Assembly (NCBI GenBank): GCA_902592715.1 | Contig: CACJFS010000005.1 | Span: 10,489 to 74,488 of the forward strand | Source of the DNA: an uncultured Pelagibacteraceae bacterium | GTDB lineage: Bacteria; Pseudomonadota; Alphaproteobacteria; Pelagibacterales; Pelagibacteraceae | Direction of reading: 5' to 3' | DNA length: 64,000 nt | In this document: positions 8,607 to 35,736 of the stretch, piece by piece | Layout: each line of letters begins with the position of its first letter | Numbering within the stretch: position 1 is the first letter of the stretch | The notes under the pieces: generated by a model | Database searches by the model: none | What the model saw: the letters and a program-made list of their open reading frames with translations, nothing else | Told to the model about the DNA's origin: nothing | Program-made: the position numbers and the translations under genes

Positions 8607-8870
8607 ATGGTATATTTTGTATATCTTATATTAACTAAAAAAGTCAATAAATTCAGGTCTTATGTAGGATATACGAATAATATTGAAAAAAGACTTCATC
8701 TTCACAATAATTCAAAAGGTGCAAAATTTACAAAAGGAAATTCATGGAAGTTAATATATTACCAAAAGTATAATGATAAAATTATTGCCATGAAAGAAGA
8801 ATATAAATTGAAAAAAAATTATAAATTACGAAATAAATTAAAAGATAAGTTTATTAAGAATGTTAAATGA
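8607..8870 (+). CDS. Small GIY-YIG nuclease superfamily protein (UPF0213/YhbQ-like)
   Basis: FVY...YVGYT, RL..HN..KGAKFT, A.KEEY.LK. Confidence 0.85.
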   Translation: MVYFVYLILTKKVNKFRSYVGYTNNIEKRLHLHNNSKGAKFTKGNSWKLIYYQKYNDKIIAMKEEYKLKKNYKLRNKLKDKFIKNVK

Positions 8871-10981
8871 AAATATCAATCTTGCTTCCATATAAAGAAG
8901 ATTATTCGCCAAAATATTCTGGGGCTGTTTCTATACATGTTTCAAATTTATTAAAATTTTCTAAATTTAAATCTACCACTTTTATATATGGCAATACTAA
9001 AGGTAATAACTACTTAACTAAAAATTTCTACAATATAAAAGTTAAAAAAAATATTTTCTCAAGTAATAATAAAAAATATTTGAAAAGGTTTGTCGATATT
9101 AATAAAAATAAAAATATTGATTTAATTGAAATACATAATAGACCTTCCTACTTTAAAGCTATTAAAGAAAACCTAAATTCTAAAATTATTATTTACTTTC
9201 ATAATGATCCATTAACATTATCTGGATCAAAGAAAAAAGTAGATCGTTTAAACCTTATAAAGAATTGTGACTATATATTCTTTAATAGTAACTGGACTAA
9301 AAATAAATTTTTCACAAATATAAATGAGCAAAACTATTTGTCAAAATTTGGAATCTGTTTCCAATCAACAAAAAAATTAAAAGTTAATTTATCTAGTAAA
9401 CAAAAATTAATAACTTTTGTTGGAAAGCTTAATGAGTCAAAAGGTTATGATGTCTTTGGAAAGGCAATTTTAAAAATATTAGATGAGTTTCCTGAATGGA
9501 AATCAACAGTTATAGGTGACGAACCTAGAGAAAAACATATTTTTAATCATAAAAATTTGAAAATTTTAAATTTTCAAGAGAATAATGCTGTTCTTAATAC
9601 ATTAAAAGGATCAAGTATATTTGTAGCATGTTCAAAATGGGAGGAGCCATTTGGAAGATCTAGCTTAGAAGCATGTAGTGCTGGCTGTGCAACAATAATA
9701 ACTAATAGAGGTGGACTGCCAGAAACAACAAAGCACCCAATAATCCTGCATAAACTCGATCCTAAAACATTATATAGTTCAATTAAAAAATTAATAATAA
9801 AGCCTAATTTTAGAAAAAAAATACAAAAGTTGAATTATAAATCTTTTTTCCTTAGTCATGAGTATGTTTCCAGTATAATAGATAAGGCAAGAAGCAATTT
9901 ATTTTCAGAAATATTACACAAAAGCTTTAATTTTAATAAAAATTCAAAACTTAAAATAATCCATATTACAAATTTTAATCACCGATACTTTGGCAGACTT
10001 CAATATAATACTGGCATAAGAATTAATAACGGATTAATTAGAGAAGGACACAATGTTTTGAATATATCCGATAGAGATATAATTAGTTATTCAAGATCTT
10101 TTAACGACCCCTCTGGTGAAAATTATCTTAATAAGTTAGTAAGCAATACAATAGAAAACTTTAAGCCTGACTTGTTAATTCTTGGTCATGCCGACCGTGT
10201 TGATCCACAATCCTTATTAGATGCAAAAAATAAATATTCTAATTTAAAAATATCCCAATGGTTTCTTGATCCATTATCGAGACAAGGACCAGATTTTTTA
10301 AAAAATAAATCTCGTGTTTTAAATAAAAGTAATTTTTGTGACGCTACTTTTATAACAACAAGTCCTGATGCATTAGATTTTAAAATTAAAAATTCTTTTT
10401 TTATCCCTAACCCTTGTGATAGAGCTTTAGATCATTTAGAAAATTTTAGGCAAAATAAAATATATGATATTTTTTACGCTATAAGTCATGGTGTCCATAG
10501 AGGTAAATTAAGAACTGGAAAAATTGATGAGCGTGAGAATTTTATAACTAAATTAAAAAGTCTATCAAATGGAGTAAAATTTGACATTTATGGGATGTTT
10601 GGTAGAGAGCCAATTTGGGGAGATAATTTTTTATCCAACTTGTCAAATTCGAACATGGCAATTAATCTAAGCAGAGGCAAACCAACCAAATATTATAGTA
10701 GTGATAGAATTGCACAGCTTGTGGGCAATGGTTTACTAACTTTTATTGACGAGAGAGCTAAATATAGTGATTTTTTTGAAAACGATGAAATGATTTTTTA
10801 CAAAGATGTATTTGATTTATCAGAAAAAATTAAAAGGTATAAAAAGGATAAAAAATTAGGTTTTAGAATAGCTAAAAAAGGACACTCAAAATATCATAAA
10901 TATTTTAATTGCTCATTAGTTTCAAAATATATTATAGAAAGGACATTTGGGTCCAATTCAAAATTCTATTGGGATAGGTGA
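8867..10981 (+). CDS. Two-module glycosyltransferase (GT4-like N-half plus second GT-B-like C-half)
   Basis: FVGKL..KG, EPFGRSSLEA in the N-half; INLSR..YSSDR in the C-half. Confidence 0.8.
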   Translation: MKISILLPYKEDYSPKYSGAVSIHVSNLLKFSKFKSTTFIYGNTKGNNYLTKNFYNIKVKKNIFSSNNKKYLKRFVDINKNKNIDLIEIHNRPSYFKAIKENLNSKIIIYFHNDPLTLSGSKKKVDRLNLIKNCDYIFFNSNWTKNKFFTNINEQNYLSKFGICFQSTKKLKVNLSSKQKLITFVGKLNESKGYDVFGKAILKILDEFPEWKSTVIGDEPREKHIFNHKNLKILNFQENNAVLNTLKGSSIFVACSKWEEPFGRSSLEACSAGCATIITNRGGLPETTKHPIILHKLDPKTLYSSIKKLIIKPNFRKKIQKLNYKSFFLSHEYVSSIIDKARSNLFSEILHKSFNFNKNSKLKIIHITNFNHRYFGRLQYNTGIRINNGLIREGHNVLNISDRDIISYSRSFNDPSGENYLNKLVSNTIENFKPDLLILGHADRVDPQSLLDAKNKYSNLKISQWFLDPLSRQGPDFLKNKSRVLNKSNFCDATFITTSPDALDFKIKNSFFIPNPCDRALDHLENFRQNKIYDIFYAISHGVHRGKLRTGKIDERENFITKLKSLSNGVKFDIYGMFGREPIWGDNFLSNLSNSNMAINLSRGKPTKYYSSDRIAQLVGNGLLTFIDERAKYSDFFENDEMIFYKDVFDLSEKIKRYKKDKKLGFRIAKKGHSKYHKYFNCSLVSKYIIERTFGSNSKFYWDR

Positions 10982-11021: not shown

Positions 11022-11879
11022 ATGAGGGCAATAATTTTAAATGCCACAGCATGGATGATTGTTCCTGTAATGGATGCTTTGGCAAAGTATTTAAGCTCTT
11101 CAATGGATGTTTTACAAATAACTTGGGCTAGATATTTTTTTACTGTTGTTTTTACATTATTAATAATGTTTTTTTTTAAAAGAAAATCTTTTGTATGGAG
11201 TAAAAAACCAACTCTACAATTATTAAGAGGATTAATTTTTGTATTTTCTACTTATTTATTTTTTTATGCAATATCTGAAATTTCCTTGCCTAAAGCACTT
11301 ACTCTAGCATTTGTTGCACCTATTTGTGTAACCGCCATGTCCCCATTTTTTTTAAATGAAAAGGTTGGCATTAGAAGATGGACTGCAGTTTCTATTGGGT
11401 TTATAGGAACTTTAGTAGTAATAAGACCGGGTTTTATTGAGATAAATTTAGCTACTTTGGCAGCTTTAGGTAATGGAATTTGTTATGGATTTTATCTAAT
11501 TATTACCAGAAAATTAAGTAAATCTGATAACTCTCTATTAACCTTATTATTTGCCGGCACGGTAGGGACTATAGTTATGTCCTTCTTTATGCCTAACGTC
11601 TGGATTAACCCATCCTCAAATCAGTGGGTTATGATGGCTTTAATAGGTCTTGTGGCTGCAGTAGCACATTTATTTATTATTTTATCATTAAAATATGCTG
11701 ATGCATCCAAACTTGCCCCTCTTGGTTATACTGAAATAATTACTAATATTATTCTTAGTTACTATATTTTTAATGAATTACCTGATAATTGGACTTATTT
11801 AGGCCTATTTATTATTGTTTTATGTGGTTTTTATATTTCTAAAAGAGAATATTATCTTTCAAAGAATATATATAGGTAA
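11022..11879 (+). CDS. DMT/EamA family transporter
   Basis: About 10 TM helices, EKVG..RW, GF.G...IRPG, ADASKLAP..Y. Confidence 0.88.
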   Translation: MRAIILNATAWMIVPVMDALAKYLSSSMDVLQITWARYFFTVVFTLLIMFFFKRKSFVWSKKPTLQLLRGLIFVFSTYLFFYAISEISLPKALTLAFVAPICVTAMSPFFLNEKVGIRRWTAVSIGFIGTLVVIRPGFIEINLATLAALGNGICYGFYLIITRKLSKSDNSLLTLLFAGTVGTIVMSFFMPNVWINPSSNQWVMMALIGLVAAVAHLFIILSLKYADASKLAPLGYTEIITNIILSYYIFNELPDNWTYLGLFIIVLCGFYISKREYYLSKNIYR

Positions 11880-12114: not shown

Positions 12115-12122
12115 GGGTAGGG
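12115..12122 (+). other. KOPS-like octamer GGGTAGGG pointing rightward
   Basis: Exact GGGNAGGG match in non-coding, very AT-rich DNA. Confidence 0.55.
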
Positions 12123-12396: not shown

Positions 12397-12672
12397 TTAA
12401 AGCAAAATTCCTTCTGAAATAAGTAGTTTTCTTTTTTTTTTAATACCTCCCAAACCAGAATAACCGCCTAATGACCCATTTGACCTTATAACTCTATGGC
12501 ATGGAATCTTTGGAGCATATGGATTTTTACCTATTGCATTTGCCACAGCTCTAACTGCTTTTGGCCTATTTATAGCTTTTGCTACATCAGAGTAAGACCT
12601 AACTTGTCCCCTAGGGATTGTTTTGAGGTATTTCCAAACTTTAACTTGAAATTTAGTTCCTTTTAGAATCAT
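12397..12672 (-). CDS. ogt: Methylated-DNA-protein-cysteine methyltransferase (MGMT), C-terminal domain only
   Basis: GTKFQ.KVW, IP.GQV.SY, RAVANA, active-site PCHRV; true start is ATG 12672 (the track's extension runs through the ncRNA). Confidence 0.92.
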   Translation of the reverse strand: MILKGTKFQVKVWKYLKTIPRGQVRSYSDVAKAINRPKAVRAVANAIGKNPYAPKIPCHRVIRSNGSLGGYSGLGGIKKKRKLLISEGILL

Positions 12673-12725
12673 AAAAAAAACCCTGTTTCCTTGCACCTTT
12701 TCAGGTACAAAGAACAGTAGTTTTT
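12673..12725 (-). terminator. Rho-independent terminator hairpin at the 3' end of the structured RNA
   Basis: CTGTTCTTTGTACCT-GAAA-AGGTGCAAGGAAACAG followed by GG and T8. Confidence 0.75.
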
Positions 12726-12862
12726 GGCACGTCGTTTTATGCGCTACCGCCATGCCGTTCACTCTACAATTTTAGCGCTACTCTGTAGAGCTTTCTGCCC
12801 TCTGGGCTTGAACCTCTCGGTTTTTCCCCAGCTGGTCAGTTAAGAGTTGCCTCTTAATTCAT
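12673..12862 (-). ncRNA. Highly structured ~190-nt RNA upstream of ogt (probably the marine psRNA2-type SAR11 small RNA; recalled, not verified)
   Basis: GC-rich island with five helical domains, GNRA loops GCAA, GAGA and GAAA, twin loops sharing GUAGCGC...UAAAA, and a terminal U8. Confidence 0.8.
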
Positions 12863-12964: not shown

Positions 12965-13438
12965 TTAAGTAAACCATCTAAAACCCTCATACATTGCAAT
13001 TCCATAAATAGAGTGTCTAGTAAAAAACATAATTGACGTTTTAATGGGTATTCCAGTCTTATTTGCAAACACTCCTTGTCCTGTAAATGGTAAAAATATC
13101 AATAATGGAGCTAAAGTTGTAAGAGCTCCAAATATAAAGCCTGAATAATAACTCATTTTTAGACCTATAATAAAAAAACAAAAATAATAAATAACGGACC
13201 AACAAATTGATACATAATAGTGAAAAACCCATCCAAGTAAGACCTCATATTTAAAATTAGGCATTTTGGCGATATTTGGGTTATAAAAAGTAGCATTTTT
13301 AAGCATATAATAAGTCCATCTTCCAACAATTCCCCAAGACGGTTCTGGAATACCGATTAATTTTAGTAAATAACCAAGAATATCAAGAATTATGCATGAA
13401 AATGTCCCAGCAACTAAAATACTAATAATATCTATCAA
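12965..13438 (-). CDS. DUF2938-like membrane protein
   Basis: W..VGRW, LGW..HY, P.TG.G, H..YG motifs; TTG start with upstream GAGG. Confidence 0.72.
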   Translation of the reverse strand: MIDIISILVAGTFSCIILDILGYLLKLIGIPEPSWGIVGRWTYYMLKNATFYNPNIAKMPNFKYEVLLGWVFHYYVSICWSVIYYFCFFIIGLKMSYYSGFIFGALTTLAPLLIFLPFTGQGVFANKTGIPIKTSIMFFTRHSIYGIAMYEGFRWFT

Positions 13439-13632: not shown

Positions 13633-13661
13633 TTGACTTGTAAAATGTGTTATATTATAAT
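13633..13661 (+). promoter_or_regulatory. Near-consensus sigma70 promoter of the recombinase
   Basis: TTGACT (13633-38), N17, TATAAT (13656-61). Confidence 0.75.
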
Positions 13662-13690
13662 TTCCGATAATTAATGGTTATCGGTAATTA
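13658..13690. other. loxP/dif-like tyrosine recombinase core site, 13-7-13
   Basis: TAATTTCCGATAA-TTAATGG-TTATCGGTAATTA; arms are a 12/13 inverted match with an asymmetric spacer; ends 2 nt before the recombinase ATG. Confidence 0.72.
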
Positions 13691-13692
13691 AT

Positions 13693-14610
13693 ATGAAAAA
13701 TATTATTAGTGATATTAAATCACTTGAACTAGAAACAATTAAAAACTTAAAAAACTCTAAAGCAAAAAATACAGTTCGAGCATACGAGTCAGATTTTAAG
13801 GACTTTGCTTTGTTTTGTCTGAAAAATGGACTTAATTCACTTCCAACTGAACCTAAGATATTATCTTTATATTTAACTCACCTATCAAAAAAAAGTAAAT
13901 TTAGTACATTAAAAAGAAGAATAGCTTCAATCAAAGTTGTGCATAAAATGAAAGGTTATTATTTGGATTCAAAACATCCTATAATAATGGAAAATCTGTT
14001 AGGTATAAAACGGGTAAATGGATCATATCAGAAATCAAAAAAACCTATATTAATCAATAATTTAAAGCTTATAATTAAAGCTATAGATGATAATGAAAAG
14101 AAAGAATTTAAACGAATAAGGAATAAATCTCTAATACTATTAGGGTTTTCTGGGGGGTTTAGGAGATCTGAATTAGTTAATATTGAGTATGATGACCTAG
14201 AATTTGTAAATGAGGGTCTTAAAATTTTTATTAAAAGATCTAAAACAGATCAATCAGGCGAAGGTAGTCTAAAAGCAATACCCTACTTCGAAAATTTAGA
14301 ATTTTGTCCAGTAATAAAACTTAAAGACTGGATTAATTTTAATAATATTAAAATAGGAAAAATTTTTGAAATTTCGGATAAGTCAGTCTCACTCATAATT
14401 AAAAAATATGCTTTTCTGGCAGGTTTAGATCCAACAAAATATGGTGGACATAGTTTAAGATCAGGATTTGCGACATCTGCTGCAGAAGCTGGTGCTGAAG
14501 AAAGGAACATTATGGCTATGACAGGCCATAAAACAACACAAATGGTAAGAAGATATATTAATGAGGCAAATTTATTTAAAAATAACGCATTAAATAAAAT
14601 TAAGTTTTAA
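13693..14610 (+). CDS. Cre-like tyrosine site-specific recombinase
   Basis: Catalytic set intact: GFRRSEL (R), RSKTDQ (K), GHSLRSG (HxxR), TGH (H), RRY (Y); Cre-like N-domain (NTVRAY, LPTEP...YLTHL, STLKRRIASI..HK..G). Confidence 0.93.
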   Translation: MKNIISDIKSLELETIKNLKNSKAKNTVRAYESDFKDFALFCLKNGLNSLPTEPKILSLYLTHLSKKSKFSTLKRRIASIKVVHKMKGYYLDSKHPIIMENLLGIKRVNGSYQKSKKPILINNLKLIIKAIDDNEKKEFKRIRNKSLILLGFSGGFRRSELVNIEYDDLEFVNEGLKIFIKRSKTDQSGEGSLKAIPYFENLEFCPVIKLKDWINFNNIKIGKIFEISDKSVSLIIKKYAFLAGLDPTKYGGHSLRSGFATSAAEAGAEERNIMAMTGHKTTQMVRRYINEANLFKNNALNKIKF

Positions 14611-14688: not shown

Positions 14689-15573
14689 TCATAATAAATT
14701 GTAAATATCTTTAGAAAGTTCATCAAAATTCTTTCTAAATACATAGTTATAATTTCTAAAATGTGAAGTCCAAACACTATAATCATATGATTTATCTATT
14801 ATATCTATTTGAGATATATTTTTTGAAGCAGCTATATGTGAAATTGATCCATGACAAGAAATTAATAATTTTGAATTAAAGACTATTTTTTCAAGTTCGA
14901 AAAAACTTTGATTTAATAAAATTTCCACGTTTTTAAAATAGTCAGACAAGGTAAGTTTTATTAATTTCATAGGAGTATGACTTCCTGTCGTAATAATTAT
15001 TTTTAATTCAAGCTTTTCTTCTAATTGTTTAATAAAGTTTATTAATTCATCTAAATTAGGTTCAATATTCATATAATTAGAAATATATGTTTTGTTTGAC
15101 CATTTTTCATCATAATGAAAAACAATATATTTCCCCTTTGAATTATCCAATAAATTATTTTTAATATCTAAAATATTCAAATTATTTTCAGAATAATTAA
15201 AACCAATCTCAGTAATAATATTTTTAATAATATCAATTTTTGTTTTTTGCTTATTTTTATCAATTAAAATTGTCTTTTTTTTTCTAATCAGAAAATTTAA
15301 GATTTTAGATCTATCCTTATCATCATGAATTATCGAATAATCAAATTTTTTTTTAAATAACTTTAAAAAATTAAAAAAATAAGAAAGTAAATTTTTTTTA
15401 TAAATAATAACTTGATCAATCCCCTTATATCTAGATATATAATCGTAGTTTTTTTTTGAACAAACAATTGTAATAGAACTATTTGGATCATTAGATCTAA
15501 TATTTTTAATTAGTATGCAGGTAAGCAGAAAATCACCAATACGATCAGTTCTGAAAATAAGATAATTCTTCAT
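14689..15573 (-). CDS. GT9/heptosyltransferase-like glycosyltransferase
   Basis: LIFRTDRIGDFLL N-terminus; ISCHGS.SHIAA. Confidence 0.7.
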   Translation of the reverse strand: MKNYLIFRTDRIGDFLLTCILIKNIRSNDPNSSITIVCSKKNYDYISRYKGIDQVIIYKKNLLSYFFNFLKLFKKKFDYSIIHDDKDRSKILNFLIRKKKTILIDKNKQKTKIDIIKNIITEIGFNYSENNLNILDIKNNLLDNSKGKYIVFHYDEKWSNKTYISNYMNIEPNLDELINFIKQLEEKLELKIIITTGSHTPMKLIKLTLSDYFKNVEILLNQSFFELEKIVFNSKLLISCHGSISHIAASKNISQIDIIDKSYDYSVWTSHFRNYNYVFRKNFDELSKDIYNLL

Positions 15574-16472: not shown

Positions 16473-17761
16473 TAAAATAATCGAATAAGAACTGGATTTT
16501 TAATAATGTTTTTATTTGATTTAAAAGATTTAATGCATCTTTGAGCGTCTAATTCATTGGCATTATGAGTAATTAGAACAATCGTAGCTGTCTTACTTTT
16601 ATTTTCGGGTAATTGTATTAATCTTTGAATTGAAATTTTATATTTTGCCAAAATCTTAGTTATAGAAGAGAGAACACCAGGTTTATCCTTAACTTTCAAT
16701 CTAACATAAAGAGAATTTGATGATTGAGCTTTATTAAATATTTTAGGCTTTAATCTTTTATTTTTAGATATACCAAAAGGATATTTTATATTTCCTCTTA
16801 ATATAGATAAAAGATCAGACATTAATGCAGAGGAGGTTGGCCCTGGTCCAGCACCCTCCCCTTGTAATACAGACTCTCCTATAGGAGAACCATTTAATAT
16901 TACAGCATTCATTACTCCTCCAACATTTCCTATGTAAGAGTCTTTTTTAACCAAACATGGATGAACTCTTTCAAAAATTCTATTATTTATAATTTCAGTA
17001 ATACCTAATAATTTTATTCTAAAATCTAACTGGTCAGCAATTTTAATGTCTGTATAATCAATATTTTCAATACCTTCCATTAGACAGTTAGATTTAGAAA
17101 TACGCTTATTGAAAGCTAATGATGTCAAAATTTTAATTTTAGCCAATGCATCATAACCATTAAGATCTAATTTTGGGTTTCCAGGTTCAGCATAGCCAAG
17201 TTTCTGTGCCATCTTCAGAACATTTTTAAAACTATCTTTAGTTTTTTCCATTTCTGACATGATATAATTACATGTACCATTAAGAATACCATAAACTTTT
17301 GTAATTTTATTTGTAGCTAAACCCTCTTTAATTGTTCGTATAATTGGAATTCCGCCTGCAACAGATGCTTCAAATTCAAGATTTACTTTATTTTTTTCTG
17401 CTAATTCACCTAATTTATCACCATGCTTAGAAATTAATGCTTTATTAGGTGTTATTACATGAATCTTATTTTTAAGAGCTATCTCAATAATTTTTTTTGA
17501 TATACCATCTGATAAACCTATTGCTTCAATTACTATATCTAGGTTTTTAATCTTTAAAATATTTAGGGGATTTGAATAAAAAATTTTCTTATTAATTTCA
17601 AATTTTCTTTTCTTATTTTTATTCTTAGCCGATATAGCTATAATTTTAATTCTCTTTCCAGTTTTAGTTTCAATATCTTTTTTTTTTGTATTTAACTCAT
17701 TTAGGACGTAAGAACCAATTTGACCAAGACCTATAACAGCAATATTTACATTATTTTTCAT
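16472..17761 (-). CDS. hom: Homoserine dehydrogenase with C-terminal ACT domain
   Basis: GLGQIG, FEASVAGGIP, GILNGTCNY, GAGPGPTSSA, DKPGVL. Confidence 0.96.
   Translation of the reverse strand: MKNNVNIAVIGLGQIGSYVLNELNTKKKDIETKTGKRIKIIAISAKNKNKKRKFEINKKIFYSNPLNILKIKNLDIVIEAIGLSDGISKKIIEIALKNKIHVITPNKALISKHGDKLGELAEKNKVNLEFEASVAGGIPIIRTIKEGLATNKITKVYGILNGTCNYIMSEMEKTKDSFKNVLKMAQKLGYAEPGNPKLDLNGYDALAKIKILTSLAFNKRISKSNCLMEGIENIDYTDIKIADQLDFRIKLLGITEIINNRIFERVHPCLVKKDSYIGNVGGVMNAVILNGSPIGESVLQGEGAGPGPTSSALMSDLLSILRGNIKYPFGISKNKRLKPKIFNKAQSSNSLYVRLKVKDKPGVLSSITKILAKYKISIQRLIQLPENKSKTATIVLITHNANELDAQRCIKSFKSNKNIIKNPVLIRLF
16854..16861 (-). other. KOPS-like octamer GGGGAGGG pointing leftward
   Basis: + strand CCCTCCCC inside hom. 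Confidence 0.45.
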
Positions 17762-22269: not shown

Positions 22270-23595
22270 ATGAGTAAAAACAAACATCCAGAAACAATTG
22301 CATTACATGGTGGAGATTACAGAAGTGATCCAGCTACAACGGCAGTAGCAGTACCATTATACAGAACAACATCTTATCAATTTAATGATACAGATCATGC
22401 TGCAAATTTATTTGCACTCAAAGAATTTGGAAACATATACACAAGAATTATGAATCCAACAAATGACGTACTTGAAAAAAGAGTTGCGGCTCTTGAAGGT
22501 GGGTTAGCAGCTGTAACTGTTGGATCAGGACAAGCAGCATCAACATTTGCAATAATGAACGTGTGTCAATCAGGAGATAACTTTGTTAGTTCAACTGATT
22601 TATATGGCGGAACAGTAAATCTATTCACTCACACACTTAAAAAATTAGGTATTGAATGTAGATATGCAGATCCATCAGATCCAAGTAATTTTGAAAAATT
22701 AATTGATGATAGAACAAGATGTTTTTATGCAGAAACTTTGCCTAATCCATATTTAAGAGTATTTCCAATAAAAGAGGTATCTGACATAGGCAGAAAGTAC
22801 AGTATTCCATTAATTATGGATAATACTGCAGCACCAGTAATTTGTAAGCCTTTAGAACATGGAGCTGCTGTAGTAGTTCATTCACTTACTAAATTTATTG
22901 GTGGTCATGGTACGGTAATAGGAGGATGTCTTGTTGATGGAGGTAATTTTGACTGGACAAAGGATCCAAAAAGACAGCCTTTATTTAACGAGCCAGATGC
23001 TAGTTATGGTGGCGCGCAATGGGGTGTTGTTGTTCCACAATTGACAGGAGCAAATGTCTCATACGCAGTAAGAGCACGTGTTGTACTATTAAGAGATCTA
23101 GGAGCACCATTAGCACCTGATAATGCATGGGGAATAATTCAAGGTTTAGAAACTGTTCCCTTAAGAATGAAACAACATTGTTCTAATGCCGAGAAAGCTG
23201 TTGCATTTTTACAAAAACATAAGAATGTAGAGAGAGTTATCTACCCTACTCTTCATAAAGGAGAAATTGGTGAAAGATCCAAAAAATATATGAAGGGTGG
23301 AAATGGAGCACTCATAGGTATCGAAGTTAAAGGTGGTGTTGAAGCAGGTAAAAAATTTATAGAGTCATTAAAGATGTTTTACCATGTTGCAAATATTGGA
23401 GATGCCAGAAGTTTAGCTATTCATCCTGCAACTACTACTCATAGCCAATTAACTGAAGAGGAACTTTTAGCTGCAGGTGTAACACCTGGATATGTAAGGT
23501 TGTCTATAGGTATTGAACATCCAGACGATATTATAGCTGATCTAGATCAAGCTTTAGGAGCTTCTGGAAAACCTAGCTTGAAAGCTGTAAGTTAG
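22270..23595 (+). CDS. metY: O-acetylhomoserine sulfhydrylase MetY, paralogue 2
   Basis: GNIYTRIMNPT, HSLTKFIGGHG, HVANIGD, RLSIGIE. Confidence 0.92.
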   Translation: MSKNKHPETIALHGGDYRSDPATTAVAVPLYRTTSYQFNDTDHAANLFALKEFGNIYTRIMNPTNDVLEKRVAALEGGLAAVTVGSGQAASTFAIMNVCQSGDNFVSSTDLYGGTVNLFTHTLKKLGIECRYADPSDPSNFEKLIDDRTRCFYAETLPNPYLRVFPIKEVSDIGRKYSIPLIMDNTAAPVICKPLEHGAAVVVHSLTKFIGGHGTVIGGCLVDGGNFDWTKDPKRQPLFNEPDASYGGAQWGVVVPQLTGANVSYAVRARVVLLRDLGAPLAPDNAWGIIQGLETVPLRMKQHCSNAEKAVAFLQKHKNVERVIYPTLHKGEIGERSKKYMKGGNGALIGIEVKGGVEAGKKFIESLKMFYHVANIGDARSLAIHPATTTHSQLTEEELLAAGVTPGYVRLSIGIEHPDDIIADLDQALGASGKPSLKAVS

Positions 23596-34205: not shown

Positions 34206-35736
34206 TTTTTTCAATCTTTTTAAACAAAATATCTAATTTATTCAATTTGAGACCTTTTTTTAAATAATTATTTTCTTTAATAGTTTCAAAATTAATATTT
34301 TCCTCACTTATACCAAATATTCCTAAAACTTTTAGTGATGATGATGGTATAATAGGATAAAGCAATATGGTTACTTTTCTTATTAGTTCCAATGCAACAT
34401 AAATAATTGTATTCATCCTTAATTTATCATTCTTTTTTTTCCAAGGTTCTTGATCATTAAAATACTTATTTGCTGAAAACAGTTGCTCAACAATAAAATT
34501 TATATAAGAATTAACATCTTGATTATTTGAATACTTTACTAAATCATCATAATATTTAGAGTATTGATCTAAAATAACCTTATCAGCTTCTGTTAGATTA
34601 TCTATATCAGGAACCTCTAAGTTAGCGTTCTTATCACAAAATGCTAAAACTCTTTGACACAAATTTCCATAATTATTAGCTAAATCACTATTGATACAAG
34701 ACTCTAATTTTTCTTGTGAGATATTTCCATCATTACCAAATGAAACTTCTTTAATTAAATAATATCTTAAAGGGTCTAGACCATAATTATCTATAATCTC
34801 AAGTGGGTCTAAAATGTTACCTTTGGATTTAGACATTTTTTCATCACCAGAAAGTATCCATCCGTGGCCAAATACTCTTTTTGGAGGTTCTATATTTGCA
34901 GCTAATAAGAAAGCCGGCCAATAAATAGCATGAAATCTTAATATATCTTTTCCAATTAGATGTAAATCTGCAGGCCAAAAAGATTTGTACAAATCATCAC
35001 TTTCATTTGGATAATTTAAAGCACTAAGATAATTTGTTAAAGCATCCAACCAAACATAAATAACATGGTCTTTATTAGATGGAACTTTTATACCCCAATT
35101 AAAAGATTTTCTACTTACAGATAAATCTTTTAATCCTGATTTAACAAAACTGATAACTTCATTTTTTCTCGTTTCAGGTAGTATAAAATCTGGATTTTTA
35201 TTATAAAACTCTATCAATTTATCTTGCCAATTTGATAATTTAAAAAAATACGATTCTTCTTCTAACCACTCTACTTTTGAACCTGAACTAATTGATTTTT
35301 TTATACCGTTTAAATCTTCAATTTCACTTTCTGTATAAAATGCTTCATCTGATACTGAATACCATCCAGAGTATTTGGATAAGTAGATTTCACCTTTTTT
35401 TTCTAAAATATTCCAAAGATTTTCAACAGATTTAGCATGTCTTTTTTCAGTTGTTCTTATGAAATCATTATTAGATAAATTTAATGTGTCGGATAAATCT
35501 TTAAAAGTTTTGCTAATTTCATTACAAAATAATAAAGGATCCATTTTTTTTTCTTCTGCAGCTCGTTGTATTTTTTGTCCATGCTCATCAGTGCCTGTTA
35601 AAAAATAAACATTAAAACCCTGTATTCTTTTTAATCTTGCAAAAAAATCAGCAATAATACTTGAATAAGCATGACCCATATGCGGTTTTGCAGATGGATA
35701 ATAAATTGGTGTTGTAATGTAGTAATTTTTATTCAC
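34198..35736 (-). CDS. metG: Methionine-tRNA ligase
   Basis: HMGH, GTDEHG, YVWLDAL, KMSKS. Confidence 0.97.
   Translation of the reverse strand: MNKNYYITTPIYYPSAKPHMGHAYSSIIADFFARLKRIQGFNVYFLTGTDEHGQKIQRAAEEKKMDPLLFCNEISKTFKDLSDTLNLSNNDFIRTTEKRHAKSVENLWNILEKKGEIYLSKYSGWYSVSDEAFYTESEIEDLNGIKKSISSGSKVEWLEEESYFFKLSNWQDKLIEFYNKNPDFILPETRKNEVISFVKSGLKDLSVSRKSFNWGIKVPSNKDHVIYVWLDALTNYLSALNYPNESDDLYKSFWPADLHLIGKDILRFHAIYWPAFLLAANIEPPKRVFGHGWILSGDEKMSKSKGNILDPLEIIDNYGLDPLRYYLIKEVSFGNDGNISQEKLESCINSDLANNYGNLCQRVLAFCDKNANLEVPDIDNLTEADKVILDQYSKYYDDLVKYSNNQDVNSYINFIVEQLFSANKYFNDQEPWKKKNDKLRMNTIIYVALELIRKVTILLYPIIPSSSLKVLGIFGISEENINFETIKENNYLKKGLKLNKLDILFKKIEKND

What the first reader, a model, noticed from the sequence alone, without database searches (positions are those of the whole stretch)
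13633..14610. Lone Cre-like recombinase with a loxP-like site at the apparent terminus: candidate non-XerCD chromosome-dimer-resolution system
Seen: a 305-aa tyrosine recombinase with all catalytic residues and a Cre-type N-domain. Immediately upstream is TAATTTCCGATAA-TTAATGG-TTATCGGTAATTA, with 13-bp arms (12/13 inverted match) and a 7-bp asymmetric spacer. There are no phage, transposon or plasmid genes and no second copy of the site in the window. The locus sits where gene orientation and KOPS-like octamers converge. Known: loxP is 13-8-13 and Cre resolves P1 dimers. Canonical dif is 11-6-11 with unequal XerC and XerD arms. Streptococcal XerS/difSL uses a single recombinase with the site directly upstream of the gene. 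Inference: near-symmetric arms fit a homotetramer of one enzyme, so this streamlined genome may have domesticated a Cre/lox-like module as its dif/Xer replacement. It could also be a new orthogonal Cre-like tool.
Basis: partly seen in the sequence, partly recalled or inferred. Interest (0 to 1): 0.9.

Follow-up and report, generated by a model that had tools for sequence, protein, structure and literature searches.

The report
Cre/lox-like chromosome dimer resolver in SAR11
SAR11 ocean bacteria, long listed as lacking the usual XerC/XerD-dif machinery for unlinking joined sister chromosomes, carry one Cre-like recombinase next to its own lox-like site exactly at the replication terminus, which most likely does that job.

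Summary
The site is at window 13658-13690: 13-bp arms matching 12/13, with a 7-bp asymmetric spacer. It ends 2 nt before the ATG of a 305-aa tyrosine recombinase with a complete catalytic set.

- **Only recombinase.** It is the only tyrosine recombinase in this assembly and in most of 187 high-quality genomes of the family. The sister family keeps canonical XerC and XerD.
- **One site per genome.** Gene and site are conserved together across at least seven genera. 306 of 360 genomes hold exactly one copy; a reversed control pattern matched in none. Two arm types co-vary with two protein length classes.
- **Terminus position.** In 7 of 7 complete genomes the site lies 0.9-2.8 kb from the cumulative GC-skew maximum.
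- **Polar motifs.** RGAGTAGG and GGGNAGGG converge on the site, 44 of 44 within ±100 kb in six genomes. FtsK has a gamma domain.
- **Cre-like.** By sequence profile and fold the enzyme is closer to Cre than to any Xer. About 1,700 plasmids carry homologues, often beside the same kind of site.
- **Phage copies.** HTVC010P-type pelagiphage contigs carry the site without the gene.

Earlier agents of this scan reached the same reading on other SAR11 genomes. I found no publication describing it. No recombination has been shown.

The parts
13633..13661 (+). Sigma-70-like promoter of the recombinase gene (TTGACT, 17 nt, TATAAT). Its -10 hexamer overlaps the outer end of the left arm of the site.
   Evidence: Matches 11 of 12 consensus positions. 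A TTGACA-N17-TATAWT arrangement is conserved upstream of every orthologue. The function is inferred.
13658..13690 (.). lox/dif-like recombination site: left arm 13658-13670, asymmetric 7-bp spacer TTAATGG 13671-13677, right arm 13678-13690.
   Evidence: Read directly. Unique in the window and the genome. One copy in 306 of 360 family genomes, with 0 of 360 for the reversed control. Arms co-vary with protein type. At the GC-skew peak in 7/7 complete genomes.
13693..14610 (+). Cre-like tyrosine recombinase, 305 aa (P0001). Catalytic residues R158, K184, H253, R256, H279, Y288.
   Evidence: Profile against PDB: Cre 8e-34, XerD 7e-20. AlphaFold model pLDDT 94.8; the top 29 Foldseek hits are all Cre or its engineered variant Tre, TM 0.72-0.81.
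12115..12122 (+). KOPS-like polar octamer GGGTAGGG, left of the site and pointing towards it.
   Evidence: GGGNAGGG polarity around the site in six other genomes: left +8/-1, right +1/-13.
16854..16861 (-). KOPS-like polar octamer GGGGAGGG, right of the site and pointing towards it.
23245..23251 (-). First of four GAGTAGG polar motifs, all on the - strand and all right of the site (also 33937, 49850, 55651).
   Evidence: RGAGTAGG is 43:3 co-oriented from origin to terminus in complete genome G013. Within ±100 kb of the site in six other genomes it is 22:0 on + to the left and 0:22 to the right.

Best explanation
This is the chromosome dimer resolution system of Pelagibacteraceae (SAR11). It is a single Cre-family tyrosine recombinase and its cognate lox/dif-like site, inherited as one module at the replication terminus in place of XerC/XerD-dif.

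Proposed mechanism; every step is inferred:
1. RecA-dependent crossing-over between sister chromosomes makes a dimer that carries two directly repeated copies of the site.
2. Septal FtsK, which has a gamma domain, pumps DNA in the direction set by polar RGAGTAGG/GGGNAGGG motifs. These converge on the site, so the two copies are brought together.
3. Two recombinase monomers bind the near-identical arms of each site. A tetramer synapses the two sites.
4. Y288 cleaves and exchanges strands across the asymmetric 7-bp spacer. The spacer's asymmetry fixes the alignment, so the outcome is deletion to two monomers.
5. The site covers the -10 to +1 region and the short leader of the recombinase's own gene, so bound enzyme probably also represses its own transcription.

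The module was most likely recruited from a plasmid multimer-resolution cassette of the Cre/loxP kind.
For: **Sole recombinase.**
- One PF00589 hit in this assembly, and no hit reaching the XerD cut-off.
- In 187 genomes of the family at 90% completeness or more, 174 have a recombinase of this weak-scoring type, mostly as the only one. None scores like a canonical Xer.
- All 13 sister-family genomes have canonical-strength (XerC/XerD-type) hits, two in 12 of them and one in the other.

**Gene and site as one unit.**
- The site lies directly upstream of every orthologue in at least 7 genera.
- Arm type A (TTCCGATAA) goes with 304-308-aa proteins; type B (ATTACTAAYGATAA) goes with 317-318-aa proteins.
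- The spacer orientation relative to the gene is constant.

**Single copy.** One copy in 306 of 360 genomes; the reversed control matched in 0 of 360.

**Terminus.**
- In G013 the cumulative GC-skew maximum is at 615,774 and the site at 617,602.
- Six more complete genomes from four genera place the site 0.9-2.8 kb from the local maximum, with positive skew for 100 kb on the left and negative for 100 kb on the right.

**FtsK guidance.**
- FtsK has 4TM, alpha, motor and gamma domains.
- RGAGTAGG was found in G013 (43:3) and is 44/44 polar towards the site in six other genomes.
- In G013 the combined motifs converge between 586,755 and 619,598 and diverge at the skew minimum.

**Cre kinship.**

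**Plasmid origin.** 1,719 plasmid records carry homologues. CCGATAA-type inverted repeats with 6-8-bp spacers lie beside 6 of 8 examined.

**Dimers can form.** RecA is present in 5 of 5 near-complete relatives.

**Established knowledge.** Cre/loxP resolves P1 plasmid dimers. loxP placed at dif together with Cre can replace XerCD/dif in E. coli.
Against: - No recombination, binding or phenotype has been shown; everything is positional and comparative.
- This assembly is 78.5% complete, and its own contig gives only a coarse skew switch, with the peak about 10 kb from the site. RecA was not found in it.
- 13 of 187 high-quality family genomes showed no recombinase. These are probably assembly gaps, since many orthologues lie at contig ends, but that is not proven.
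- The related genomes are not independent samples.
- RGAGTAGG is sparse (about 1 per 29 kb) and was found post hoc, although it then held in other genomes.
- A site placed between promoter and ATG would also be expected for a plain operator.
Confidence: 0.8

Rival explanations
1. The site is mainly a chromosomal attachment or capture site. The resident recombinase integrates and excises circular DNA that carries a matching site, such as pelagiphage genomes or gene cassettes for the variable neighbouring slot. Dimer resolution is absent or secondary.
For: - 40 IMG/VR contigs carry the site core, against 6 for the reversed control. About 19 also match the arms, and none encodes the recombinase.
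- These contigs are HTVC010P-type pelagiphages.
- Cultured phage HTVC100P has two adjacent site-like sequences.
- The flanks of the module differ between strains: 8 downstream-flank clusters among 34 loci.
Against: - No genome among 360 has two copies, as an integrated element would leave. The one apparent case is a duplicated contig end.
- Synteny breakpoints fall outside the site core.
- This reading does not explain the exact terminus position, the converging polar motifs, or the loss of XerCD.
- In known systems such hijacking (IMEX elements) sits on top of a dimer-resolution function.
Confidence: 0.08
2. The palindrome is only an autoregulatory operator. The recombinase acts on some other, unrecognised target or is a relic.
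For: The site overlaps the -10 hexamer and fills the space up to the ATG.
Against: - In Cre-type enzymes the binding site is the recombination site.
- The 13-7-13 layout with an asymmetric spacer is that of a crossover site.
- A mere operator gives no reason for the terminus position in 7/7 genomes, for phage-borne copies, or for plasmid homologues whose site can lie up to about 860 bp from the gene.
- The gene is intact and conserved across the family at 57-79% identity.
Confidence: 0.05
3. It is a remnant of an integrated plasmid or other mobile element that happens to lie near the terminus and has no cellular role.
For: The closest non-SAR11 relatives (34-50% identity) are plasmid-borne or patchily distributed 'site-specific integrases'.
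Against: - It is fixed across at least 7 genera at the same chromosomal position, with intact catalytic residues.
- It is the only recombinase in genomes known for extreme streamlining.
- No other tyrosine recombinase is present in this assembly.
Confidence: 0.03

Closest known systems
Cre/loxP of phage P1, and engineered loxP-at-dif plus Cre in E. coli
   Same: - Best match by sequence profile: 8e-34, full length; hhalign 2.9e-25.
- Best match by fold: TM 0.72-0.81.
- A single enzyme acts on inverted arms around an asymmetric spacer.
- The site lies upstream of the gene: in P1, lox is about 430 bp before cre.
- The natural role is replicon dimer resolution (established knowledge).
- The arms resemble loxP. 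The Skermanella plasmid relative has TAACTTCCGATAA in a 13-8-13 layout.
   Different: - Only about 20% identity to Cre.
- His279 stands where Cre has Trp315.
- The spacer is 7 bp, not 8.
- The module is chromosomal, fixed at the terminus, flanked by converging KOPS-like motifs, and overlaps its own promoter.
- Vertical inheritance in a whole bacterial family rather than carriage on a phage-plasmid.
Single-recombinase Xer modules: XerS/difSL (streptococci, lactococci) and XerH/difH (Helicobacter, Campylobacter)
   Same: One recombinase replaces XerCD. The site lies next to the gene as one module at the terminus, in non-coding, AT-rich DNA (PMC2731167, PMC5357621).
   Different: - A different recombinase lineage: the XerS model scores 48.9 bits against a cut-off of 267, and XerH gives profile E 7e-8 against 8e-34 for Cre.
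- The protein is shorter (305 aa against about 356-363 aa).
- The arms are longer and nearly perfect repeats.
XerL/dif of Legionellales (PMC9765430)
   Same: A dimer-resolution system overlooked in a group listed in 2009 as lacking dif/Xer. It has one recombinase, long uninterrupted inverted arms, varying flanking genes, and a mobile element that carries a mimic of the site.
   Different: xerL lies more than 400 kb from dif, or on a plasmid in Coxiella. XerL is longer (catalytic Tyr at 387-389). I did not compare the sequences, and XerL function has been shown experimentally.
XerC/XerD-dif with FtsK and KOPS
   Same: Terminus position, one copy per chromosome, an FtsK with a gamma domain, polar G-rich octamers converging on the site, and the inner arm bases ATAA/TTAT.
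   Different: - One enzyme instead of two.
- 13-7-13 near-symmetric arms instead of 11-6-11 unequal arms.
- The XerD and XerC models score 67 and 59 bits against cut-offs of about 330.
- The sister family of the same order still has the canonical pair.

Membership tests
dif/Xer-type chromosome dimer resolution system (functional class) | Tyrosine recombinase with a complete catalytic set | tested here: met
   R158, K184, H253, R256 and Y288 are invariant and H279 is nearly invariant in 70 family members. Pfam Phage_integrase 7e-18.
dif/Xer-type chromosome dimer resolution system (functional class) | One site of about 30 bp with inverted arms and a central region, in non-coding DNA, single copy per chromosome | tested here: met
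   One copy in 306 of 360 family genomes; the reversed control matched in none.
dif/Xer-type chromosome dimer resolution system (functional class) | Site at the replication terminus (cumulative GC-skew maximum) | tested here: met
   7 of 7 complete genomes place it within 0.9-2.8 kb. On the window's own contig the result is only coarse, at about 10 kb.
dif/Xer-type chromosome dimer resolution system (functional class) | FtsK translocase with a gamma domain, and polar motifs converging on the site | tested here: met
   FtsK_gamma scores 89.7 bits. RGAGTAGG is 44/44 polar in six genomes. G013 shows convergence around the site. All 7 motif occurrences in the window point at the site.
dif/Xer-type chromosome dimer resolution system (functional class) | Recombination between two sites, and a segregation defect on loss | not testable with these tools
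   Needs excision assays and mutants.
XerC / XerD (TIGR02224, TIGR02225) | Score above the curated equivalog cut-off | tested here: not met
   67.0 bits against 329.6 (XerD) and 59.1 against 335.15 (XerC). Sister-family proteins score 316 and 314 bits.
XerS (NF003462) / XerH / XerA | Sequence membership | tested here: not met
   XerS scores 48.9 bits against 267, and the XerA model 67.1 against 220. Family profile against XerH gives 7e-8 and against XerA 5e-18, while Cre gives 8e-34.
Cre-type recombinases | Full-length sequence and fold similarity to Cre, including the N-terminal DNA-binding domain | tested here: met
   The profile covers Cre residues 34-328. hhalign probability 99.7% over 275 columns. 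The top 29 Foldseek hits are all Cre or its engineered variant Tre.
Cre-type recombinases | lox-type site: 13-bp inverted arms around an 8-bp asymmetric spacer, near the gene | tested here: inconclusive
   The arms are 13 bp here (9-14 bp across the family) and the spacer is asymmetric, but it is 7 bp. Plasmid relatives have 6-, 7- and 8-bp spacers. The cleavage positions are unknown.
Cre-type recombinases | Cre catalytic signature R-K-H-R-W plus Y | tested here: not met
   His279 aligns with Cre Trp315, giving the Xer/lambda-type R-K-H-R-H.

The most novel reading that the evidence does not exclude
A natural Cre/lox-type module has fully replaced XerCD/dif in the most abundant bacterial family of the ocean. 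It works with FtsK only for positioning, with catalysis autonomous as in Cre. HTVC010P-type pelagiphages, among the most abundant phages known and lacking an integrase of this family on the contigs examined, carry the site as an attP mimic. They would use the host enzyme to integrate at the terminus, or to resolve their own multimers, as tailed-phage IMEX elements.
Probability: 0.3. Interest if true: 0.85.

Novelty: new variant of a known kind. Interest (0 to 1): 0.8.

Why it matters
- **It closes a gap open since 2009.** Carnoy and Roten (PMC2731167) listed Pelagibacter ubique as having no dif/Xer system and took this as evidence that streamlining can discard dimer resolution. The evidence here says the function was kept but handed to a different, smaller one-gene module.
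- **It would be a fifth independent solution.** The known ones are XerCD, XerS, XerH/XerA and XerL. This would be the first natural case of a Cre-family enzyme serving a chromosome.
- **It gives a precise terminus marker.** The marker and a candidate FtsK-orienting motif (RGAGTAGG) apply to a group that is hard to study genetically.
- **It offers candidate genome-engineering tools.** Two co-evolved recombinase/site pairs could serve as orthogonal Cre-like tools.
- **It suggests a route for phage exploitation.** Abundant pelagiphages may exploit the host enzyme through their own copies of the site.

Tried and rejected
- **De novo octamer screen in G013 ranked by z-score** gave only A-rich words with weak skew. 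Ranking by skew ratio was needed to find RGAGTAGG.
- **A genome with two copies of the site (G256)** looked like an integrated element. It is a 5.3-kb, 99% identical duplication of contig ends.
- **Small viral contigs (4-6 kb)** suggested microviruses. They are fragments of tailed phages with terminase, portal and capsid genes.
- **A canonical dif pattern with one mismatch** is no commoner than its reversed control in these AT-rich genomes. One recurrent sister-family sequence looks like a true 11-6-11 dif, but I did not place it relative to a terminus.
- **RecA was not found in this assembly**. It is present in 5 of 5 relatives.
- **Invertase or shufflon reading** was rejected because there is only one site.
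- **tblastn of the protein against phage genomes** gave only two weak hits, so a phage origin is unlikely.
- **Literature searches** for SAR11 or Pelagibacter with dif, Xer, dimer resolution or tyrosine recombinase found no description of this system. The library covers only open-access PMC and bioRxiv.
- **One treekit run failed** on a row-name error; I replaced it with FastTree.

Full report
**What is there.**
- The site at window 13658-13690 reads TAATTTCCGATAA / TTAATGG / TTATCGGTAATTA. The arms are 13 bp and match 12/13; the spacer is 7 bp and asymmetric.
- The site ends 2 nt before the ATG (13693) of a 305-aa ORF, 13693-14610.
- A promoter-like TTGACT-17-TATAAT lies at 13633-13661. Its -10 hexamer overlaps the left arm.
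- The protein has the Pfam Phage_integrase domain (7e-18) and a SAM-like N-domain.
- It falls far below every curated Xer cut-off: XerD 67 bits against 329.6, XerC 59 against 335, XerS 49 against 267.
- The site is unique in the window (0 of 100 shuffles gave a match). It is also unique in the 1.08-Mb, 42-contig, 78.5%-complete assembly, even allowing 6 mismatches.

**It is the only recombinase.**
- The assembly has a single PF00589 hit.
- Among 187 genomes of the same family (f1, at least 90% complete), 174 have a recombinase of this weak-scoring type (Pfam E 1e-18 to 1e-23), usually as the only one. None has a hit of canonical Xer strength.
- All 13 genomes of the sister family (f2) have canonical-strength hits (E 1e-39 to 1e-48), two in 12 of them and one in the other. 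In one of these genomes the two proteins score 316 bits on the XerD model and 314 on the XerC model.
- FtsK in this assembly has the 4TM, alpha, motor and gamma domains.
- RecA was not found in this incomplete assembly. It is present in 5 of 5 near-complete relatives.

**Gene and site travel together and co-vary.**
- Orthologues at 57-79% identity occur in 29 of 36 sampled genomes of the genus and in six further genera.
- Every orthologue with upstream sequence has the same layout: promoter, inverted repeat, 7-bp spacer TTWATKG in constant orientation, then the ATG within 15 nt.
- Type A arms (TTCCGATAA / TTATCGGAA) go with 304-308-aa proteins; this window is type A. Type B arms (ATTACTAAYGATAA / TTATCAATAGTAAT) go with 317-318-aa proteins.
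- On a protein tree most type B proteins form one clade. Both types occur in more than one genus.
- The core pattern occurs exactly once in 306 of 360 family genomes. The reversed control pattern matched in none.
- The single genome with two copies has a duplicated contig end, not an insertion.

**It is at the terminus.**

| Genome | Evidence | Distance, site to GC-skew maximum |
|---|---|---|
| G013 (complete, 1,343,202 bp) | Maximum at 615,774, minimum at 1,290,841; gene 616,649-617,599; site 617,602-617,633 | 1.8 kb |
| G109, G061, G216, G071, G065, G081 (four genera) | ±100 kb fetched; skew positive across the 100 kb on the left and negative on the right | 0.9-2.8 kb |
| Own contig C5 | Skew +0.082 left of the site, -0.043 right of it | about 10 kb |

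That identification is my inference.

**Polar motifs converge on it.**
- A screen of G013 for strongly strand-biased octamers gave overlapping words that define RGAGTAGG, which is 43:3 co-oriented from origin to terminus. The screen found 10 such words with the true axis and 2 with a rotated axis.
- I then tested the motif on six other genomes within ±100 kb of the site. It is 22:0 on + to the left and 0:22 to the right.
- The nearest occurrences lie 303 bp to the left of the site in one genome and 710 bp to the right in another.
- Canonical GGGNAGGG shows the same polarity: 8:1 on the left and 1:13 on the right.
- In G013 the two motifs together converge between 586,755 and 619,598. They diverge at the skew minimum.
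- In the window all seven occurrences point at the site.

**It is Cre-like and plasmid-derived.**
- The single sequence hits XerA, XerD and Cre about equally against PDB.
- A profile of 70 family members separates them: Cre 8e-34 over its full length, XerD 7e-20, XerA 5e-18, XerH 7e-8.
- hhalign gives 2.9e-25 to P1 Cre and 1.9e-11 to the sister family's XerD.
- The AlphaFold model (pLDDT 94.8) has Cre or its engineered variant Tre as its top 29 Foldseek hits, TM 0.72-0.81. XerH follows at 0.67.
- His279 replaces Cre Trp315.
- The family is large, with 1,840 clusters at E < 1e-30. Its closest non-SAR11 members are 'site-specific integrases' of scattered taxa.
- 1,719 plasmid records carry a homologue, against 2 weak phage hits.
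- Of eight plasmid homologues examined, six have an inverted repeat of the same kind near the gene:
  - Skermanella: TAACTTCCGATAA-N8-TTATCGGAAGTTA
  - Protochlamydia: 16-7-16
  - Rickettsiales Ac37b: 13-6-13
  - Alicyclobacillus: 13-7-13
  - Sporosarcina and Methylomonas: imperfect repeats
- In P1, lox also lies upstream of cre.

- The site core occurs in 40 IMG/VR contigs, against 6 for the reversed control. None encodes the recombinase. About 19 also match the type A or B arms beyond the core.
- These contigs are fragments of tailed phages. In the one contig annotated in detail (L213) the site lies between the small and large terminase genes; in others it lies a few hundred bp upstream of the large-terminase gene.
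- The terminase is 62% identical to that of HTVC010P-type pelagiphages.
- Cultured phage HTVC100P has two adjacent site-like sequences in a non-coding stretch near one genome end.
- This fits exploitation of the host enzyme, but no integrated copy was found in 360 genomes.

**Literature.**
- The 2017 review of single-recombinase Xer systems and the 2022 XerL paper do not mention SAR11.
- No searched paper describes this module.
- Earlier agents of this scan reached the same reading on other SAR11 genomes.

**Verdict.** The most likely function is FtsK-guided chromosome dimer resolution by a plasmid-derived Cre/lox-type module, with probable autorepression. All mechanistic steps are inferred, and recombination has not been shown.

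Noticed in passing
L213:5359-5377; L191, L204, L188 and other IMG/VR loci L186-L225; L242:225-290 (Pelagibacter phage HTVC100P, record 34,317-34,382): HTVC010P-type pelagiphage contigs carry the SAR11 site near the terminase genes (between the small and large subunit genes in L213) but not the recombinase. HTVC100P has two adjacent site-like sequences, one with a 6-nt spacer.
   Followed up: partly
G013 whole genome; six ±100-kb windows (L126-L185); window 12115, 16854, 23245, 33937, 47604, 49850, 55651: RGAGTAGG is a strongly polar, KOPS-like motif in Pelagibacteraceae. It is 43:3 genome-wide in G013 and 44/44 oriented towards the site in six other genomes. It differs from GGGNAGGG at one of seven aligned positions.
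   Followed up: yes
window 14689-15573 (-): A 294-aa ORF directly downstream of the recombinase has no Pfam family, even at E up to 1. The downstream neighbour differs between strains: 8 flank clusters among 34 loci.
   Followed up: partly
window 12397-12762 (-) and 12965-13438 (-): Upstream neighbours are a 121-aa protein holding only the methylguanine-methyltransferase DNA-binding domain and a DUF2938 protein. Further upstream lie an EamA transporter (11022-11879) and a 704-aa double glycosyltransferase (8867-10981). The immediate upstream neighbour also varies between strains.
   Followed up: partly
L246:1470-1550, L245:1470-1550 (-), L248:1470-1550 (sister-family genomes G037, G044, G038): Candidate canonical 11-6-11 dif in the XerCD-bearing sister family: ACATATAA TTACAT TTATGTTAAGG, and CACATAA TTTACA TTATGTAAAGA. 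I did not place it relative to a terminus.
   Followed up: partly
Loci L007, L009, L014, L029, L031, L032, L033, L121: In draft genomes the recombinase locus very often lies within about 1-3 kb of a contig end or is cut by it. This suggests assemblies break in the variable DNA next to the terminus, and may explain the apparent absences.
   Followed up: no
G256:C1:1-5335 and G256:C3:182,576-187,909: Two 99% identical copies of the locus sit at contig ends, and the recombinase alignment is split or frameshifted in both. This looks like a two-strain assembly artefact, not a duplication.
   Followed up: yes
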